DNA from: a virus
IMG/VR virus record: IMGVR_UViG_3300042197_004429
Coordinates: 64,001 to 128,000 of that record
Length of the DNA: 64,000 nt
Strand: one strand, 5' to 3'
The position numbers were made by a program, and so were the translations under genes. Of this stretch, positions 3 to 8,302 are shown in pieces (position 1 is the first letter of the stretch; every line of letters begins with the position of its first letter). A model generated the notes under the pieces. It was not told the origin of the DNA. It did not search any database and saw only the letters and a program-made list of their open reading frames with translations.

Positions 3-515
3 ATGGTGGAGATGATATTTGCCGAAGAGTCAGATTTTGTTTTTTTATCAGATGAATTTAAACAAATACGAGAACAAAAATATAATTTAATTGATAGTGA
101 ATATCTTTACAAAAGTTTGTTAGGATATATTCAAAATGAAAAAAAACTAGCAAACGGAGAAAGAACTGGAAATTTGGGCAGTAAAAGAAAAAACACATTA
201 GATGCTTTTGGTTATAGTCCTAAGAATTTTTCTCACCTTTTTAGGTTGTCTTTTTGTGGTCAAACTTTTTTTGAAACTGGCGTCTACCCAGTTAACCTGA
301 ATCGATTTGATAAACAGTTCAGAGATCTTGTTTTCTCCATAAAAACAGAGCCTGAAAAATACAATAAAGAATATTTGAATATGTTATGCGAAAAATCATT
401 GCAAAAATTAACAATATCGTTCAACAACAGAAAAGATAACTTTAAATTTGACGTTTCTTTGGCTAATGAGTTTTGCAGAAAATTTTACCTTCCTTTTTTG
501 GAAACAAGCTATTGA
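3..515 (+). CDS. C-terminal part of a putative phage nucleotidyltransferase (RlaP/DNA pol beta superfamily-like), 5'-truncated by the window edge
   Basis: ORF open at window start; segment FGYSPKNFSHLFRL...G.YPV resembles the helical C-terminus of phage nucleotidyltransferases; catalytic N-terminus not visible. Confidence 0.45.
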   Translation: MVEMIFAEESDFVFLSDEFKQIREQKYNLIDSEYLYKSLLGYIQNEKKLANGERTGNLGSKRKNTLDAFGYSPKNFSHLFRLSFCGQTFFETGVYPVNLNRFDKQFRDLVFSIKTEPEKYNKEYLNMLCEKSLQKLTISFNNRKDNFKFDVSLANEFCRKFYLPFLETSY

Positions 516-539
516 CAAAAAAAATAAAATAATTAATAT
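512..539 (+). promoter_or_regulatory. sigma70-type promoter for the downstream structured RNA
   Basis: TTGACA at 512-517, 16-nt spacer, TAATAT at 534-539. Confidence 0.6.
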
Positions 540-550
540 ATAGTCTTATT

Positions 551-699
551 GCCAGTAGGGGTTGGTTGTTGTGTCACCCCTTGCTGGTTGTTAGATGTTG
601 TCAACTTACCGGCAAAGTTGACCGCTGTTCAGCCGGTTAACAGCGTTACGTCCCCCACCGGGTAGAGAACCTCGTCCCTTCTCCCCGGTGGGGTTTTTT
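551..699 (+). ncRNA. Putative structured ncRNA: four hairpins with complementary (kissing) loops
   Basis: GC-rich intergenic island. Stems 551-561/577-588, 600-607/615-622, 623-629/639-645 and 653-669/679-693 followed by a T run. Loop ACCGGC (608-613) is the reverse complement of loop GCCGGT (632-637). Confidence 0.65.
653..699 (+). terminator. Intrinsic terminator-like hairpin closing the ncRNA
   Basis: CCCCACCGGG...CCCGGTGGGG stem followed by TTTTTT. Confidence 0.65.
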
Positions 700-713
700 G
701 TTATAATATTTTT

Positions 714-1667
714 ATGAGTTGGCAAGAAAAAATACAATTATTGCGATTAGGTGATTATGAAAAAGGTTGGCCTGATCACGAAGACGTTGTGGTCGGAACT
801 GGTAGTAACGTCTTTTGTTCCTCCCCAGATTACGGCAAGCCGGTTTGGTGTGGTCAAAAAGAGGATATTGTTCTATTGATAGATGCTCTTTTTGGTGATG
901 GTGACACCATTCAATTTTTTAGATTTGTTGAAGAGGCTAGAAAAAGAGTTAAAAAAATAATTTTACATTGTAATCAAGAGTTTGATAATTTATTTAGCGA
1001 ATTTGAGGTCTCAGATAAACAAAAACATCCATTAAATTTTGATAAAGTTATTCATATGATGGCTTTGCCAAAAGTTTTAAAAATTAAAAAAAATGAAATA
1101 AAAGGTTTTCCATATTTAACGCCAAACGACGCCGCTTCTCCAAACCCAGCAATTCAAGTTTTGCCCTTGTTAAAATTTCCAAAAGTTGGAGTTTGTTGGT
1201 GTGGCAATCCATTTAATGCTCTTGATTACAAAAGATCAGTACCTGTTAATTTGCTTGAAATTTTGAATGTTTGTGACAATTTCAAATTTTTTAGTTTGTG
1301 TAGAATTTTTGGTCCCCCAAAAAATTATTTTGATTATCGAAATGCAATGACAGATTGGAACCAAACAGCACACTTGGTTAAAAATATGGATTTGGTGATT
1401 ACTGTAGATACATCGGTGGCCCACCTAGCAGGATCTATGGGCGTGAAGACTTGGCTTTTGTTGGACCCTGAGGTTGGTGAATGGAGATGGGGAGATGATC
1501 AAAAAACAATTTGGTACGATAGCGTACAAGTATTTAGAAAGAAAAACGACTGGCGAACATTGCTTTCTGAGTTGAGCGAGATCTTAAAAGTATTTTTAGA
1601 GGATCATCAAAAAAATAAAAAAGAATGCATTTGTAAACCGTCAGCTATTCTTGAGTCTTTTATTTAG
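714..1667 (+). CDS. GT-B glycosyltransferase (GT9/heptosyltransferase-like, TPR-associated type)
   Basis: DLVITVDTSVAHLAGSMG, VGVCWCGNP and WRW motifs. Confidence 0.75.
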   Translation: MSWQEKIQLLRLGDYEKGWPDHEDVVVGTGSNVFCSSPDYGKPVWCGQKEDIVLLIDALFGDGDTIQFFRFVEEARKRVKKIILHCNQEFDNLFSEFEVSDKQKHPLNFDKVIHMMALPKVLKIKKNEIKGFPYLTPNDAASPNPAIQVLPLLKFPKVGVCWCGNPFNALDYKRSVPVNLLEILNVCDNFKFFSLCRIFGPPKNYFDYRNAMTDWNQTAHLVKNMDLVITVDTSVAHLAGSMGVKTWLLLDPEVGEWRWGDDQKTIWYDSVQVFRKKNDWRTLLSELSEILKVFLEDHQKNKKECICKPSAILESFI

Positions 1668-2851: not shown

Positions 2852-3556
2852 TCATGGATGGTTTTGCATGATGCAAAGAGGCAAGGATGCCTCAATTTTT
2901 TTTGCAATAACTAAAATATAACTTCTATTTGCTTTTAATTGATAATTTTTATTTTCTTTTTTAATATTAATTTTTTCTAGATAATCTTCAATATATTTTT
3001 TATTAGAAAATTTTTGTTTGTAATTTTCTTCCTTTATTTCTACTTTAAATTTTGAAAAATATTCAAATATTTCTTGTTTAGAAAAAAATATTTTTTCTCT
3101 AGTTTTTAAATCTAATAAATTATTTAAATCACTTTTTTCTTGAATCCTTAATATCGCTAATCCGCCTTTTTTTAACCTATTGATGAAGATATCAGATAGG
3201 TGGCTTAGATTAACGTAATCTTTTCTTATGGCACAATCACTCACTATCACATCAAATGATTTGTTTATCTTTTTCCAAGAAACTGGGTCGCCAAAATCTC
3301 CAGAAACAAAATTAATTGAAGAATTTAACTCAGAAGATTTTTCAATTAAATTTTTGCATAAATCTATTCCATAAACTTTTTTAAATAAAGGTTCGATATA
3401 TTTTGTTAACCGACCACCGGCACACCCTAAGTCAATCGCAATTGAGTCTTTGTTTTGATGTTTGTAAATTTCTTGCCGAAGTATATTTGGAACTTTACTT
3501 TTTTTTAGCCAATATTGTTCGTTAGGACTCAGGCCATTGGTGGTCGATTTTTCCAT
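2852..3556 (-). CDS. Class I SAM-dependent methyltransferase
   Basis: IDLGCAGG motif I, YGIDLC motif II, FDVIVS motif IV. Confidence 0.8.
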   Translation of the reverse strand: MEKSTTNGLSPNEQYWLKKSKVPNILRQEIYKHQNKDSIAIDLGCAGGRLTKYIEPLFKKVYGIDLCKNLIEKSSELNSSINFVSGDFGDPVSWKKINKSFDVIVSDCAIRKDYVNLSHLSDIFINRLKKGGLAILRIQEKSDLNNLLDLKTREKIFFSKQEIFEYFSKFKVEIKEENYKQKFSNKKYIEDYLEKINIKKENKNYQLKANRSYILVIAKKIEASLPLCIMQNHP

Positions 3557-5733
3557 TTGAAAAAACTATCTGAGTAATGATCTGCTGTGCGTCTGGCAAT
3601 TTCTTTGCCAATCTCTGGTCCTGGTTTTGTTAGACCTAAATCTCTTTGTATTTCTTGACCACTTAAAATTGGTGGTTCGTAATCGCCAAGATGAGACAAA
3701 TGATCTGAATCTACTTCGTGTCCTATCATTGGGTGAAAGCCACGTATTAACTCTTTTCTGAAATCGGGGTTTTTCTTTGAAAAAGATGTAGCATGTTGGC
3801 TTATATTTTGTGGTGTGGGATTTTGTAGTATAGACCAAGTTTGCATTAAAAAAGCAACTTCGTCAACTATGTCATTTGGCCAATTTAATTTATTTAGTTT
3901 ATTTCTAACTTCTTGAGGCGTACCGGATTTTCTCAAGAGTGTCGCAAGAGTTAGGATAACTTTCTTTTTGTTATGGTTTTTTTCAATTTTATCTTGTTCT
4001 TTTGCTTCTAAGCCAGAAACATTCGGCAGACTTGGAAGATTTGCTAGGTGATCAACCGCTTCCATGTCTAAAACCAATCCAGGAAACATATAAGGCAATG
4101 CTCCTATAGATTCAAATCCATGTAAAATAACCTTTGGATCTCTTGCCTTCAACAACGCTGCCACAAACTCTGCTTGTATTCTCTCGGGGGAAACCCCTTC
4201 AAGAGTGCTAAATTTTTTCATGGCTTCAAAAGTTTCTGGGTCAACGATGTCTTTTAAATTTTCTTTGTTGAATATTCCATGAAATCTAACCCCTCTTAAA
4301 ACTCTAAGTCGGTCTTCGCCAAAACGATCTTCTGCACTCCCGACCGGCCTGATCTTTTTTTGTTTAATGTCTTTAAGTCCTTGCCCTTTGCCGTAATCAA
4401 TTATTGTTCCTTGTCCCCCAAATTCATTTGGCATCTCATAGTATAAAGCATTTATGGTAAAGTCTCTGCGACGATAATCATTCTTTGCATCAGATGGTTT
4501 TACTGTGTCTGGTCTTCTGTTGTCGGAGTAGCCTGATTCTTCACGAAATGTTGCTATCTCATATTCTATTTTGTCTATAACTGCTGAGATTACTCCAAAA
4601 GATTCGCCTTTTGCAATAGGTTCTATGCCCATGTTGATTAGCACTTGTTTAACTTCGTCAGAGGTTGCATTTGTGGCAAAATCTACGTCTTTAATTTTAA
4701 ATGGCACATCATGAAATTGACTCATAAGATAATCACGAACTGTTCCGCCAACTATATAAATTGTGAATCCTGCGCTCTTAAAATTATCGGATATCAATTG
4801 AGCGCCTTTTTGAAATTTTCCAAGAGGAATGTTTGCCTCCATCGTGGAAGGTTTATCCTCCTCAGATTCGAAAAATACTTTGAATTTCATCCGTGATTCG
4901 CCCAGAAGTTGTGTGATCTCTGTGTCGGTTAAATTTGGAAATCGCCCTCGTAAAGCCGACCGGATTATTTCATTGGGTTTTCCTTTTTCACGCATACTAG
5001 AAACAAAACCAACTGGATCGCTAGACATTGGCTTACTTGCACGAGAGGCTATTTTGTCAAGATCTTGTTTATACATAGATGCCGTTGCATCTATGCCCTC
5101 CAAACCTCTCGCTGCTGCTGATGTGTTACCTTGAGCAAATTGCTTGGCTTTCTGCCAAGGAATTCCACTTTCTCCTCCACGACCCATGCGGTCCATTAAC
5201 AAAAATACCAATAGTAATTTAATTTTACGGTCAGGTTTGTATTTTCCTTGATCATCTAGTATTTCTTTTTTTAAAGATTTATTTTGAAAACCCTCTTTGT
5301 CTTTGAGACTCATATGATACTTGATAACCCACCACAGATCGTCCTTATCAGATTGGTTGGATTGGCTATACATTTGATGCCATATTGGTCCCAATCTTTG
5401 CATGGCTTTTTCAAAGTTTTCTGGATCTTCATGACCATGGGCACTCAACTTCACAGGGTCTAATGTGTCTCCCTTGCCTATGTCGTGCAATAAACCAGCA
5501 AGACGCAATATGTTCATATCCTCTGAAGCGAAACTTAAATCTAGATTGGAAAGTGGACCACTTGGGTCATTTTTTTGTTTTTCTTGTAAAATTTTTATTG
5601 CTGGTTCTAGAGACGAACGCACCATCATGGTGTGACGATCCACGCCCCCCTCAGGATGATGCTTGGGGTTTTGAGGCACTTTTAATTGTTGTCTAAGTGA
5701 AGACTCAGATAGCCATTCATTAAAACATTTCAT
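3529..5733 (-). CDS. cca: HD-domain / CCA-adding tRNA nucleotidyltransferase fusion with HD at the N-terminus
   Basis: HHPEGGVDRHT and LAGLLHDIGK (CCA-type HD domain); VGGTVRD, DVDFAT, FREESGYSDNRRP, RRDFTINAL, EDRLRVLRGVRF (class II CCA core); C-terminal LSGQEIQRDLGLTKPGPEIG. Confidence 0.9.
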   Translation of the reverse strand: MKCFNEWLSESSLRQQLKVPQNPKHHPEGGVDRHTMMVRSSLEPAIKILQEKQKNDPSGPLSNLDLSFASEDMNILRLAGLLHDIGKGDTLDPVKLSAHGHEDPENFEKAMQRLGPIWHQMYSQSNQSDKDDLWWVIKYHMSLKDKEGFQNKSLKKEILDDQGKYKPDRKIKLLLVFLLMDRMGRGGESGIPWQKAKQFAQGNTSAAARGLEGIDATASMYKQDLDKIASRASKPMSSDPVGFVSSMREKGKPNEIIRSALRGRFPNLTDTEITQLLGESRMKFKVFFESEEDKPSTMEANIPLGKFQKGAQLISDNFKSAGFTIYIVGGTVRDYLMSQFHDVPFKIKDVDFATNATSDEVKQVLINMGIEPIAKGESFGVISAVIDKIEYEIATFREESGYSDNRRPDTVKPSDAKNDYRRRDFTINALYYEMPNEFGGQGTIIDYGKGQGLKDIKQKKIRPVGSAEDRFGEDRLRVLRGVRFHGIFNKENLKDIVDPETFEAMKKFSTLEGVSPERIQAEFVAALLKARDPKVILHGFESIGALPYMFPGLVLDMEAVDHLANLPSLPNVSGLEAKEQDKIEKNHNKKKVILTLATLLRKSGTPQEVRNKLNKLNWPNDIVDEVAFLMQTWSILQNPTPQNISQHATSFSKKNPDFRKELIRGFHPMIGHEVDSDHLSHLGDYEPPILSGQEIQRDLGLTKPGPEIGKEIARRTADHYSDSFFKWKNRPPMA

Positions 5734-6100: not shown

Positions 6101-6295
6101 ATGTTATTTTTAGATATGTTACTTTTAGTATTTTCGGTATGTTTATTTGTGTATTTTATTGAGTGTTATGTGTTTTTAACACAAAATAATTCTCATAATG
6201 TTTTAAACAATATTAATCATTATATCGCAAATGATTATCCATTAAAAAATAAAGAATCGAATAAAAACATAAATTGGAAAAAAGAGGGCTTTTAA
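6101..6295 (+). CDS. Small membrane protein ending in WKKEGF
   Basis: N-terminal hydrophobic helix; stop overlaps the ATG of the next gene (TAATG). Confidence 0.55.
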   Translation: MLFLDMLLLVFSVCLFVYFIECYVFLTQNNSHNVLNNINHYIANDYPLKNKESNKNINWKKEGF

Positions 6296-6921
6296 TGACT
6301 TTAACATTACAACAAAGAAAATGTTTAGTATTGAACAAAAATTGGAGACCGATTTCTGCAATCGGACTTGATGATGCTATTTGTAAATTATTTTGTGAGT
6401 ACTCTGATGGTACTCCCAAGGCGACAATAATAGAACCTAAGACTTATCAAACTTTCACTTGGGCAGATTGGAGTCGATTAGAGCCTATTGAAAACGAAGA
6501 CAGAATTTATACTAGTTCATATAGTTTTAAAATTCCAGAAATTATATTGTTGAGTCGATATGAAAAATTACCAAAGCCAAAAGTTCATTTTTCCAGAAGA
6601 AATTTATATAAAAGAGACGCCAATCAATGTCAATATTGCGGTTGTAAACCAGGAACAGAGGAACTAACAATAGAACACGTTGTTCCTAGATCTCATGGTG
6701 GTGAAACAACTTGGGAAAATTGCGTTATCGCCTGTGTCTCCTGCAATAGACGAAAAGCAGACAGAACACCAGATCAAGCAGGAATGAAACTTTTAAAGCA
6801 TCCAAAAAAACCAGAGGGACACTCGTTTAGATTTAGCGATTGTAAGCCTGTAAAGTCCTGGCAAGCCTTTCTGGGTCAGGCTTATTGGCTTGTTGAATTA
6901 GAAAATAAAAATATTGATTAG
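6295..6921 (+). CDS. HNH endonuclease (McrA-like family)
   Basis: LVLNKNWRP N-terminus; RD...CQYCG...LTIEHVVPRSHGG..TWENCVIACVSCNRRK; start set at ATG 6295. Confidence 0.9.
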   Translation: MTLTLQQRKCLVLNKNWRPISAIGLDDAICKLFCEYSDGTPKATIIEPKTYQTFTWADWSRLEPIENEDRIYTSSYSFKIPEIILLSRYEKLPKPKVHFSRRNLYKRDANQCQYCGCKPGTEELTIEHVVPRSHGGETTWENCVIACVSCNRRKADRTPDQAGMKLLKHPKKPEGHSFRFSDCKPVKSWQAFLGQAYWLVELENKNID

Positions 6922-7077: not shown

Positions 7078-7250
7078 ATTACTTGTTGTCCGGTACTCAA
7101 AACTTACAAAAATCTACAAGTAGGTTTTTTGTTTGATTCTGGTTTCTACGACGATCACCTGTTGATTTCTCAACATGAACCTTATCATCTACACCAGCGT
7201 TAATTCCCGTGTACCTCACGGTATATAATTCTAAATTTTTTGCTGCGTTA
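7070..7250 (-). ncRNA. Predicted TnpB omegaRNA (scaffold over tnpB 3' end and right end, guide from flank)
   Basis: Position inferred from known TnpB biology; predicted guide ACAACAAGTAATTCACTTGG; 5' boundary uncertain. Confidence 0.55.
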
Positions 7251-8302
7251 AAATCACGGTCAATTTCTAATCCGCAATTGTAGCAAGAATAAGTTCTATC
7301 CGCAAGGGTCAAGTCCTCTTTCTTGTTTCCACAATAAGAACATAACTTTGAACTTGCATAAAACCTATCAGCAACAATTAATTCCTTGCCGTACCAAGAA
7401 CATTTATATTCTAATTGTCTTCTGAATTCATAGAATCCAATATTTGCAATTGATTTGGCTAAATTGTGATTCTTTAACATTCCGTTTACATTCAAATCTT
7501 CAATAACAATTTTATTGTTTGATTTGGTTTTCACCAAACAAGATGTTGTTTTATGAAGAATATCTTTTCTGTGGTTGCTAATATTAAAATGAACCTTTGC
7601 TATCTTTTCTTTCGTTTTTTTTCTTGAATTGCTATCTTTTTGTTGACGAGATAATTTTCGTTGTAATCTCTTTAACTGTTTTTCTTTGTTTTTTAGTTTT
7701 TTTGATGATTCAAATATTTCACCATCACTTGTGATTGCAAGGTGTTTAATTCCTAAATCAACGCCAACAACTTTATTTTCATATTGTTTTTGTTCTGTCT
7801 CTACTTCGTATCGTATTGAGACGAACCATCTGTTTGCTCTTAAAGATATAGTTGCTGATTTAGGCTTGCCTTCTGGGATATAATCATGTTCTTTTAAGTT
7901 TACCCAACCAATTTTTGGCAACTTAATCTTATTGTTTTTCAAAATTATTGGAGCGTCAAGTGTGAATGAATCTTTTTGTCCTTTTTTCTTGAATTTAGGA
8001 AAAGCATTTTGTTTTTTGAAAAACTTCTTATACGCAGTCTCAAGGTTTCTGAGTGAGTTTTGTGGACACCACTTGCTTATTTCTTTAATCCACTTGAATT
8101 CATCGTTCTTTTTAGCGACCAAAATCTTGTGTAATGTAATTGCCGAGGGCTTAATTTTCTTTTCTAATTTATAATCTTCTTGCAACAGAGCCAACGCCCA
8201 GTTATAAACAAATCTTGCAGTTCCAGCATATTGTTTGAATAGTGTTTTTTGTTTATTGTTAGGTTTTAGTTCTATTTTGAAGGATTTATAAATCATTTGC
8301 AA
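7097..8302 (-). CDS. tnpB: TnpB RNA-guided endonuclease
   Basis: N-terminal HTH (KQYAGTARFVYNWAL); RuvC VGVDLGIK / IVIEDLNV / DRDFNAAKNL; CSYCG...CYNCG zinc finger; all catalytic residues present. Confidence 0.95.
   Translation of the reverse strand: MQMIYKSFKIELKPNNKQKTLFKQYAGTARFVYNWALALLQEDYKLEKKIKPSAITLHKILVAKKNDEFKWIKEISKWCPQNSLRNLETAYKKFFKKQNAFPKFKKKGQKDSFTLDAPIILKNNKIKLPKIGWVNLKEHDYIPEGKPKSATISLRANRWFVSIRYEVETEQKQYENKVVGVDLGIKHLAITSDGEIFESSKKLKNKEKQLKRLQRKLSRQQKDSNSRKKTKEKIAKVHFNISNHRKDILHKTTSCLVKTKSNNKIVIEDLNVNGMLKNHNLAKSIANIGFYEFRRQLEYKCSWYGKELIVADRFYASSKLCSYCGNKKEDLTLADRTYSCYNCGLEIDRDFNAAKNLELYTVRYTGINAGVDDKVHVEKSTGDRRRNQNQTKNLLVDFCKF

What the first reader, a model, noticed from the sequence alone, without database searches (positions are those of the whole stretch)
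551..699. Promoter-to-terminator ~150-nt RNA with two abutting hairpins whose loops are perfectly complementary
Seen: a GC-rich non-coding island in AT-rich DNA, bracketed by a TTGACA promoter and a U-tailed hairpin. It has four stems. H2 (600-622, loop ACCGGCA) and H3 (623-645, loop CAGCCGGTT) are joined with no linker, and ACCGGC/GCCGGT can form a 6-bp kissing interaction. Known: loop-loop pairing underlies the SRP Alu domain, purine riboswitches and the ring-forming phi29 pRNA. Inference: hairpins with no linker would tend to stack coaxially and point their loops apart, favouring intermolecular pairing and oligomers. I cannot match it to any RNA family I recognise, so it may be a new phage ncRNA class.
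Basis: partly seen in the sequence, partly recalled or inferred. Interest (0 to 1): 0.85.

Follow-up and report, generated by a model that had tools for sequence, protein, structure and literature searches.

The report
New folded RNA of huge phages
The stretch encodes a real, evolutionarily maintained folded RNA of about 150 bases, found once per genome in a small group of very large freshwater phages and matching no catalogued RNA family. Its two hairpin tips always stay complementary, but its function is unknown.

Summary
**Observation:** confirmed. Window 546-699 (+) folds into a 5' hairpin H1 and a 5-bp helix P1 that closes a three-way junction. The junction carries two abutting hairpins, H2 and H3. 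A bulged hairpin H4 with a U-tract follows.

**Homologs:** I found them in about ten other contigs of huge phages (238-501 kb). They are single copy wherever a whole record could be scanned.

**Structure:** all helices keep pairing through compensatory changes. 94.7% of cells are paired against 46-51% for slid controls, and 10 pairs change on both sides against 0-1. G-U pairs fix the RNA to the + strand.

**Sequence conservation:** the core is 98-100% identical between phages whose flanking coding DNA is 74-79% identical.

**Loops:** the 5-nt cores CCGGC and GCCGG are invariant and always complementary. No covariation exists to prove or disprove kissing.

**Searches:** Rfam, GenBank phages, and motif scans of bacterial genomes (which would miss diverged relatives) gave nothing.

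**Context:**
- In one relative a convergent gene separates the RNA from the downstream glycosyltransferase-like gene.
- In another relative H4 has no U-tract.
- So H4 is part of the functional core rather than only a terminator, and a simple leader role is unlikely.

**Reading:** best reading is a stand-alone structural RNA with loop-loop pairing. Whether that pairing is intra- or intermolecular remains open.

The scan had also noted this same stretch from an overlapping window.

The parts
512..539 (+). Sigma-70-type promoter candidate: TTGACA, 16-nt spacer, TAATAT.
   Evidence: scores it 10/12. Both hexamers are kept in L002 and L007 although the L007 spacer differs. L009 has a 12/12 consensus promoter upstream of its copy. 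Transcription has not been shown.
551..588 (+). H1, the variable 5' hairpin. It has an 11-bp lower stem, a short upper stem and a U/G-rich loop.
   Evidence: The fold is. Across window, L002 and L007, 100% of cells are paired and 3 pairs change on both sides. Three further variants seen in contigs of other runs (556 T>C, 576 A>G, 579 C>T) all preserve pairing. The sequence is not conserved in distant members, which carry a different hairpin at this position.
594..652 (+). Three-way junction. P1 pairs 594-598 with 648-652. H2 spans 600-622 with loop L2 at 608-614. H3 spans 623-645 with loop L3 at 630-638. No nucleotide lies between H2 and H3.
   Evidence: Counts are. P1 has one pair changed on both sides (U-A to C-G) and one on one side (U-G to C-G). 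In H2, 7 of 8 pairs change on both sides. In H3, one pair changes on both sides and several G-U variants occur. The junction strands vary in sequence and length: J12 is 0-2 nt, J23 0-1 nt and J31 1-3 nt.
608..613 (+). L2 core. ACCGGC in the AT-rich members; CCGGC is invariant in every member.
632..637 (+). L3 core. GCCGG is invariant and complementary to the L2 core. The following U varies.
   Evidence: Duplex energy is -10.2 to -12.2 kcal/mol in all seven parsed members.
653..693 (+). H4. A 10-bp G+C-rich outer stem, a 2-nt bulge, a 4-5-bp inner stem and a C-rich apical loop. Its sequence is conserved.
   Evidence: One outer pair runs C-G, U-G, U-A across members and G-C in L037. The rest is nearly invariant down to L037.
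694..699 (+). U-tract that completes an intrinsic-terminator shape.
   Evidence: Seen. It is present in all AT-rich members and absent in L037.
699..707 (+). Extended -10-like TGTTATAAT, ending 7 nt before the ATG at 714. This is context: a possible own promoter for the next gene.
   Evidence: Read from the sequence. The TATAAT hexamer is kept in L002, L007 and L008. The promoter function is inferred only.
714..1667 (+). Downstream glycosyltransferase-family-9-like gene (context, used as the synteny anchor).
   Evidence: Pfam PF01075 gives a weak match. Homologs occur on phage contigs of up to 618 kb.
3..515 (+). 3' part of the upstream RlaP-family nucleotidyltransferase gene (context).
   Evidence: Pfam PF10127 matches the full ORF, L001 742-1470.

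Best explanation
Window 546-699 (+) is the gene for a stable, highly structured non-coding RNA. It belongs to an uncatalogued family carried once per genome by a small clade of huge freshwater phages.

**Transcription unit (inferred).** In this genome it is an independent unit. Transcription starts from the sigma-70-type promoter at 512-539 and ends at H4 and its U-tract, giving about 150 nt.

**Functional core (shown by conservation).** The core is P1-H2-H3 plus H4. H1 is a variable accessory hairpin.

**Fold (inferred).** The invariant loop cores CCGGC (L2) and GCCGG (L3) pair through five mostly G-C pairs. This either clamps H2 against H3 inside one molecule or joins molecules head to tail.

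**Function (inferred).** H4 stays invariant in sequence even where it is not a terminator. It therefore most likely acts as a recognition surface for a protein or another partner. I read the RNA as a trans-acting structural RNA or RNP component, not as a switch for the gene that follows it.

**Confidence.** That this is a real, selected, structured RNA family on the + strand: about 0.9. The figure given below (0.45) is for the whole statement, including the stand-alone, trans-acting role.
For: **Structure**
- On the alignment fitted to the model, 94.7% of cells are paired against 46-51% when partners are slid. Ten pairs change on both sides against 0-1 for slid controls.
- A hand parse of seven members pairs every helix.
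- H1 covaries on its own.

**Strand**
- G-U pairs occur in P1, H2, H3 and H4. They would be A-C mismatches on the other strand.

**Selection**
- The core is 98-100% identical to L002 and L007, while flanking coding DNA is 74-79% identical.

**Copy number**
- It is single copy in the three whole phage records scanned.

**Independence from the downstream gene**
- In L033 a convergent 142-aa gene lies between the RNA and the GT9-like gene, yet the RNA is intact and carries a compensatory change in H4.
- GT9-like genes of sister phages lack the RNA altogether.
- The next gene appears to have its own -10 element.

**H4 is core, not only a terminator**
- It is kept in L037 without a U-tract.

**Loops**
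- Complementarity is kept in all members although loop lengths range from 5-7 to 11 nt for L2 and from 9 to 13 nt for L3.
- The chance of such complementarity is about 0.001-0.04.

**Not coding**
- Only short TTG-start frames occur. Indels among homologs leave no common frame.
Against: - No transcript evidence exists. No RNA run is listed for this DNA.
- A promoter is evident only in this clade and in L009. L037 has no room for one, and none was detected in L010. In some phages the RNA must therefore be part of a longer transcript.
- In 6 of 8 loci whose downstream side is readable, the RNA lies directly upstream of the GT9-like gene in the same orientation. In L037 it precedes a NADAR-GT9 gene pair. 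This is what a cis-regulator would show.
- The loop cores never vary, so no covariation supports the loop-loop pairing. Their invariance could equally reflect binding of a protein or another RNA.
- No partner has been identified.
Confidence: 0.45

Rival explanations
1. It is a cis-acting 5' leader (a riboswitch-like or protein-dependent attenuator) that controls the downstream GT9-like gene. The three-way junction with docked loops would be the sensor and H4 the terminator.
For: - It has the same orientation as the GT9-like gene and lies 14-70 nt upstream of it in the window clade, the L009 clade and the L010 clade.
- In L037 it sits 21 nt before the start codon of a NADAR gene (a ribosome-binding motif lies in that gap), which the GT9-like gene follows.
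- The layout of promoter, structured RNA, terminator and gene is the classic riboswitch layout.
- Phage motifs such as manA sit upstream of sugar-related genes (bioRxiv 10.64898/2026.07.01.735769).
Against: - In L033 a convergent gene separates the RNA from the GT9-like gene, yet the RNA is fully maintained.
- Junction nucleotides, where three-way-junction aptamers bind their ligands, vary in sequence and length.
- I found no conserved antiterminator pairing. The only candidate, loop CCGG pairing with the CCGG in H4, is lost in L033, L010 and L034.
- H4 is conserved in sequence even without a U-tract in L037, which is unlike an expression platform.
- The H4 stem with six U is strong.
- The next gene has its own -10-like element.
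- Related GT9-like genes do without the RNA.
Confidence: 0.25
2. It is a self-assembling RNA. H2 stacks coaxially on H3, so L2 and L3 point in opposite directions and pair only between molecules. This would give head-to-tail rings or filaments.
For: - The strand running from H2 into H3 has no linker nucleotide in the AT-rich members, while the other two junction strands have slack. This favours H2/H3 stacking, an inference from general three-way-junction behaviour.
- The loops are heterotypic, G+C-rich and complementary, at -10 to -12 kcal/mol.
- Natural phage-associated RNAs under 200 nt assemble through intermolecular kissing loops (manA, bioRxiv 10.64898/2026.07.01.735769).
- ROOL and GOLLD also form homo-oligomers (PMC12286853).
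Against:
- H2 and H3 keep near-equal lengths (7-9 bp), as expected for side-by-side packing with an intramolecular contact.
- The loop cores do not covary, unlike the pRNA loops.
- It would not explain the strict conservation of H4.
Confidence: 0.2
3. It is a trans-acting antisense RNA. The exposed G+C-rich loops and the C-rich H4 apical loop would pair with a host or phage RNA, for example ribosomal RNA or ribosome-binding sites.
For: - Invariant loop sequences, and a core far more conserved than structure alone requires, are what pairing to a conserved partner would produce.
- An earlier scan note (e1-5763264) reported a lake-phage RNA antisense to 23S rRNA.
Against: - Against the E. coli rrn operon, the longest exact sense or antisense match is 9 nt, which is chance level.
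- The H4 apical loop is not conserved in the L010 clade.
- Neither the host nor any target is known.
Confidence: 0.1

Closest known systems
phi29-type packaging RNA (pRNA, Rfam RF00044)
   Same: A phage-encoded RNA of about 120-170 nt built on a three-way junction. Two hairpin loops are complementary to each other.
   Different: - It does not match the covariance model, even at E up to 10.
- pRNA loops pair through 4 bp and covary between phages. Here a 5-nt core is invariant.
- pRNA belongs to small protein-primed phages and docks on their portal. This RNA is in phages of 238-501 kb, in an island of RNA-repair and sugar genes.
- pRNA has no counterpart of H4.
Purine riboswitch aptamer (RF00167) and SRP Alu 5' domain
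   Same: A closing helix and two neighbouring hairpins of about 7-8 bp, whose loops can form G-C pairs that lock the hairpins side by side.
   Different: - No covariance-model match.
- The purine aptamer has long, conserved junction strands that form the ligand pocket. Here the junction strands are 0-3 nt and variable.
- The Alu domain has a conserved U-turn between its hairpins. Here there is no linker.
- Those loops form 2-3 inter-loop pairs, not 5.
manA, ROOL and GOLLD: orphan structured RNAs of phages and prophages
   Same: They are phage-borne, strongly structured, of unknown function and rich in loop-loop contacts. manA lies upstream of sugar-metabolism genes and self-assembles through heterotypic kissing loops.
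   Different: - No sequence or structure similarity in the Rfam search.
- This RNA is much smaller than ROOL or GOLLD.
- Its architecture (H1, three-way junction, H4) is different.
- Oligomerisation is untested here.
T4 species 1 and species 2 RNAs (rnaC, rnaD)
   Same: Small stable phage RNAs of unknown function, encoded near RNA-related genes.
   Different: - Their folds and sequences are unrelated to this RNA.
- The T4 RNAs are processed from the tRNA cluster transcript. No tRNA lies within this 64-kb window: the six tRNA genes of the 177-kb record are at 23-35 kb and 165 kb, the nearest 29 kb before the window start.

Membership tests
Any Rfam 15 family | Covariance-model score at or above the family's gathering threshold. 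| tested here: not met
   One search gave 0 matches in the whole window. In one search the best sub-threshold hits were 22 bits (gathering score 66) and 18.6 bits (gathering score 90), at E of 0.13 or worse.
phi29 pRNA (RF00044) | Match to the pRNA covariance model. | tested here: not met
   It is not among the matches at E up to 10.
phi29 pRNA (RF00044) | Two loops of one molecule are mutually complementary, and the complementarity is kept by covariation across phages. | tested here: inconclusive
   Complementarity is present in all members, but the cores are invariant, so there is no covariation.
phi29 pRNA (RF00044) | Encoded by a small phi29-like phage, and forms a ring on the portal of the packaging motor. 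| tested here: not met
   The carrier records are 177-501 kb. Ring formation cannot be tested here.
Purine riboswitch (RF00167) | Conserved junction nucleotides that form the ligand pocket. | tested here: not met
   Junction strands are 0-3 nt long and vary in sequence. There is no covariance-model match.
Guanidine-II riboswitch (mini-ykkC) | Two hairpins, each capped by a conserved ACGR tetraloop. | tested here: not met
   The loops carry CCGGC and GCCGG within 5-13 nt. There is no covariance-model match.
Rho-independent terminator | A G+C-rich hairpin directly followed by a U-tract. | tested here: met
   In the window, a 10-bp G+C-rich stem is followed by six U. The 3' half is listed as terminator-like in L033 and L009. 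The feature is not met in L037. Termination is therefore an added role of H4 rather than its defining role.
Riboswitch or attenuator leader | Always lies in the 5' UTR of the regulated gene, with alternative terminator and antiterminator pairings. | tested here: not met
   In L033 a convergent gene follows the RNA. I found no conserved alternative pairing. This was inspection, not an exhaustive search.
Antisense RNA to ribosomal RNA (lead from earlier scan note e1-5763264) | A long stretch that is the reverse complement of a conserved rRNA segment. | tested here: not met
   The longest exact match to E. coli 16S, 23S or 5S rRNA on either strand is 9 nt. Only E. coli rRNA was tested.

The most novel reading that the evidence does not exclude
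The RNA is a natural self-assembling unit. H2 and H3 form one coaxial rod whose two ends carry complementary G+C-rich loops. Molecules would then chain head to tail into rings or filaments inside infected cells, with P1-H4 and H1 projecting as arms that bind proteins. It would be a compact (about 110-nt core) phage RNA with quaternary structure, analogous to pRNA and manA but evolutionarily unrelated to them.
Probability: 0.2. Interest if true: 0.85.

Novelty: new variant of a known kind. Interest (0 to 1): 0.6.

Why it matters
- **A new conserved RNA in huge phages.** These phages are known almost only from metagenomes, and their non-coding RNAs are essentially uncharted. This compact RNA is under very strong purifying selection, with a core identical between phages whose neighbouring genes differ by a quarter of their bases. 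That marks a function important to them.
- **A small test case for RNA packing.** The design is a three-way junction with two equal hairpins and mutually complementary G+C-rich loops, plus an invariant bulged hairpin. It could help answer how loop-loop contacts decide between intramolecular and intermolecular packing. That question has become topical since manA, ROOL and GOLLD were shown to form RNA-only assemblies.
- **A possible nanotechnology module.** If it self-assembles, it would be a new natural building block for RNA nanotechnology.
- **A possible handle on an unknown partner.** If it binds a protein, it points to an unknown RNP of huge phages.
- **Current value.** At present it is a well-supported orphan RNA family.

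Tried and rejected
**Searches that found no known family or extra homolog**
- Rfam at gathering and at permissive thresholds gave nothing. ARAGORN found no tRNA or tmRNA in the window.
- blastn of the RNA against 50,697 GenBank phage records gave no match.
- Pattern scans of IMG/VR with the loops or with the H4 motif returned only the 458-kb and 238-kb relatives, plus chance hits in coding DNA.
- A pattern scan of JGI metagenome contigs returned only the 458-kb relative again, plus 12 unrelated hairpins.
- Two pattern scans of 185,579 bacterial and archaeal genomes gave 0 and 109 stretches. All 109 were in G+C-rich coding DNA without the junction loops.
- Covariance models R1 and R2 found no second copy in three whole phage records, and none in six GT9-bearing loci that lack the RNA.

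**Expression**
- No RNA holder is listed among the public runs that hold this DNA. Expression could therefore not be examined.
- Laying contigs of four DNA runs gave extra natural variants only.

**Readings considered and rejected**
- Small peptide gene: rejected. Only TTG-start frames occur, and indels in homologs leave no common frame.
- DNA-level element: rejected, because G-U pairs are strand-specific.
- Antisense to rRNA: no support with E. coli rRNA.
- Relation to T4 rnaC or rnaD: none.
- An antiterminator formed by loop CCGG with the CCGG of H4: rejected, because that CCGG is not kept in L033, L010 and L034.
- A constant H2+H3 length as evidence for coaxial stacking: dropped, because H3 of L009 can be read as 7 or 8 bp.
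- The omegaRNA of the TnpB at 7097-8302 lies about 6.4 kb away and is unrelated.

Full report
**1. What is in the sequence**

The window is bases 64001-128000 of a 177-kb IMG/VR virus record with 34% G+C.

At 512-539 lies a TTGACA / 16 nt / TAATAT promoter candidate. It overlaps the stop codon of an RlaP-family nucleotidyltransferase gene.

From about 546 to 699 the DNA rises to 52-57% G+C against a 20-35% background. This is the joint highest G+C peak of the whole record.

The + strand RNA folds at -63.7 kcal/mol, z = -4.3, and none of 200 shuffles does as well. The fold contains:
- H1 at 551-588.
- A 5-bp helix P1, pairing 594-598 with 648-652.
- H2 at 600-622, with an 8-bp stem and a 7-nt loop.
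- H3 at 623-645, with a 7-bp stem and a 9-nt loop. It abuts H2 with no linker.
- H4 at 653-693, directly after P1. It has a 10-bp outer stem, a 2-nt bulge, a 5-bp inner stem and a 9-nt loop, and is followed by six U.

The only addition is P1, which makes H2 and H3 two arms of a three-way junction.

The loops contain ACCGGC and GCCGGU, with a duplex energy of -11.6 kcal/mol. Random loops of these sizes and this composition reach 6 complementary bases with probability about 0.001, and 5 bases with about 0.01.

The minus strand folds nearly as well, so energy does not choose the strand.

**2. Not a known family**

- Rfam 15 gives nothing at gathering thresholds over the whole window. A permissive search gives only far sub-threshold noise.
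- There is no tRNA or tmRNA in the window.
- blastn against GenBank phages finds nothing.
- No credible open reading frame lies in the stretch.

**3. Homologs**

The downstream gene (714-1667) is glycosyltransferase-family-9-like. It has many relatives on very large phage contigs. I fetched their contexts and read or scanned them.

The same RNA turned up in:
- L002, a 458-kb phage.
- L007, a 501-kb contig.
- L008, cut at its 5' end.
- L009, L031 and L032.
- L033.
- L010, L011 and L034.
- L037, a 238-kb phage with a higher G+C content.

Contigs from four further sequencing runs added natural variants.

It is absent from six other GT9-bearing loci. It is single copy in the three whole phage records that could be scanned.

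Motif scans of IMG/VR, JGI metagenomes and 185,579 prokaryote genomes added no further member. The runs that hold this DNA are mostly labelled freshwater or lake metagenomes.

**4. The structure is under selection**

*Pair counts on the core.* On the alignment fitted to the covariance model, 94.7% of pair cells are standard pairs. When the 3' partners are slid by 1-3 columns the figure is 46-51%. Ten pairs show changes on both sides, against 0-1 in the slid controls. No shuffle reaches the observed covariation score. This alignment was fitted to the structure, which favours it. I therefore also parsed seven members by hand, and every helix pairs in every member.

*Helix by helix.*
- H2 is the best supported, with 7 of 8 pairs changed on both sides.
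- P1 changes U-A to C-G at one pair and U-G to C-G at another.
- H3 has one pair changed on both sides, plus several G-U variants.
- H4 has one outer pair that runs C-G, U-G, U-A. The same pair is G-C in L037.
- H1 was tested separately on three sequences. It is 100% paired, with three pairs changed on both sides. Three more natural variants preserve pairing.

*Strand.* G-U pairs occur in P1, H2, H3 and H4. They would be A-C mismatches on the opposite strand, so the RNA is read from the + strand.

*Sequence conservation.* The core 594-699 is 98.1% identical to L002 and 100% identical to L007. The flanking coding DNA of the same phages is 74-79% identical. Selection therefore acts on far more than base pairing.

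**5. The loops**

In every member L2 contains CCGGC and L3 contains GCCGG. This holds although L2 ranges from 5-7 to 11 nt and L3 from 9 to 13 nt, and the other loop bases vary.

The predicted inter-loop duplex is -10.2 to -12.2 kcal/mol throughout.

The conserved interaction is therefore 5 bp.

Because the cores never change, there is no covariation. The pairing is neither proven nor refuted. The invariance could also come from recognition by a protein or another RNA.

**6. Leader or stand-alone RNA**

*For a leader.* The RNA lies directly upstream of the GT9-like gene, in the same orientation, in most loci. In L037 it precedes a NADAR gene followed by the GT9-like gene.

*Against a leader.*
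- In L033 the order is RlaP, the RNA, a convergent 142-aa gene (PF04120), then the GT9-like gene. The RNA there is intact and carries the compensatory U-A pair in H4.
- The same convergent gene sits next to GT9-like genes that have no RNA. That adjacency may therefore be ancestral.
- Junction strands are short and variable, so no junction ligand pocket is conserved.
- I found no conserved antiterminator pairing.
- H4 is conserved nearly base for base. This includes its bulge and, in all clades but one, its apical loop. It is retained in L037 without any U-tract. That is the behaviour of a functional domain, not of an expression platform.
- In this genome the next gene has an extended -10-like TGTTATAAT ending 7 nt before its ATG.

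*Limits on the stand-alone reading.*
- A clear promoter is seen only here, in L002 and L007, and in L009, where it is 12/12.
- None was detected in L010.
- L037 has only about 12 nt between the upstream stop codon and P1.
- In some phages the RNA must therefore be cut from, or act within, a longer transcript.

I put the stand-alone structural RNA reading ahead of the leader reading. I do not exclude the leader.

**7. Intra- or intermolecular loop pairing**

The strand that passes from H2 into H3 has no spare nucleotide in the AT-rich members, while the other two junction strands have 0-3. General three-way-junction behaviour then favours H2 stacking on H3.

There are recent precedents. manA RNAs under 200 nt, found in phages upstream of sugar genes, assemble through heterotypic kissing loops (bioRxiv 10.64898/2026.07.01.735769). 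ROOL and GOLLD form homo-oligomers (PMC12286853).

Against this, H2 and H3 keep near-equal lengths of 7-9 bp in all members. That geometry is the one used by the purine riboswitch and the SRP Alu domain (from my own knowledge) to dock two loops side by side within one molecule.

No tool here models RNA tertiary structure, so the question stays open.

**8. Other leads tested**

- An earlier scan note described a lake-phage RNA antisense to 23S rRNA. Against the E. coli rrn operon, the longest exact match on either strand is 9 nt, which is chance level.
- Another note linked a kissing-loop RNA to T4 species 1 RNA. T4 rnaC and rnaD share neither fold nor loops with this RNA.
- The neighbourhood has an RNA-repair flavour. 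It holds RlaP, which adds one or two nucleotides to damaged RNA 3' ends (PMC12776372). It also holds an FtsJ-like methyltransferase and an HD plus poly(A)-polymerase-type enzyme. Nothing ties these proteins to the RNA beyond proximity. In L010 and L037 the upstream genes are different.

**9. Verdict**

This is a genuine, strongly selected, structured RNA of an uncatalogued family, restricted so far to a small clade of huge freshwater phages.

Its architecture is shown by covariation. The loop-loop pairing is plausible and always possible, but unproven. Its function is unknown.

My best reading is a stand-alone structural RNA whose docked or linked loops and invariant H4 present a binding surface. 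The self-assembly reading remains a live and more exciting possibility.

Noticed in passing
whole 177-kb record (G000), including the window: The tetranucleotide CGCG does not occur at all (0 observed, 116 expected from a Markov estimate). GCGC (49 observed, 148 expected) and GGCC (148 observed, 277 expected) are strongly depleted. CCGG and GATC are not depleted. This looks like avoidance of host restriction sites and could help identify the host.
   Followed up: no
window 699-716: An extended -10-like TGTTATAAT ends 7 nt before the ATG of the GT9-like gene, and no ribosome-binding motif lies between them. The TATAAT is kept in L002, L007 and L008. The mRNA may be leaderless, or translated without a Shine-Dalgarno sequence.
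   Followed up: partly
window 3-515, 2852-3556 (-), 3529-5733 (-): A cluster with an RNA-repair flavour surrounds the RNA: an RlaP nucleotidyltransferase, an FtsJ-like methyltransferase and a 734-aa protein carrying an HD domain plus a poly(A)-polymerase/CCA-type head domain. The same set recurs next to the GT9-like gene in L007, L009 and, in part, L010, L014 and L033.
   Followed up: partly
window 6274-6921 (+) and 7097-8302 (-): An HNH endonuclease gene and an IS605/IS607-type TnpB gene (OrfB_IS605 plus a Cas12f-like TNB domain) lie about 6 kb downstream. They are unrelated to the RNA.
   Followed up: no
L033 2516-2944 (-), L014 2473-2901 (-), L016 2311-2724 (-): A small gene with a PF04120 (Iron_permease) match lies divergently next to the GT9-like gene in several huge-phage contigs. 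In L033 it separates the RNA from that gene.
   Followed up: partly
L037 783-3840: In the 238-kb relative the gene order is a GT2 glycosyltransferase, a histidine phosphatase, the RNA, a NADAR-domain protein, then the GT9-like protein. The RNA there is intercistronic, with no promoter room and no U-tract.
   Followed up: partly
window 714-1667 and proteins P0001-P0120: The phage GT9-like protein (about 300-320 aa) corresponds to the C-terminal part of bacterial proteins that carry long TPR arrays at their N-termini. The phage versions lack the TPR part. They occur on contigs of up to 618 kb.
   Followed up: no
window 566-573 and 589-600; L010 4826-4843: U/G-rich runs of the UGUUGU type recur in the H1 loop and in the linker before P1. 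They also occur in the otherwise unrelated 5' hairpin of the L010 clade. They may be a single-stranded binding motif.
   Followed up: no
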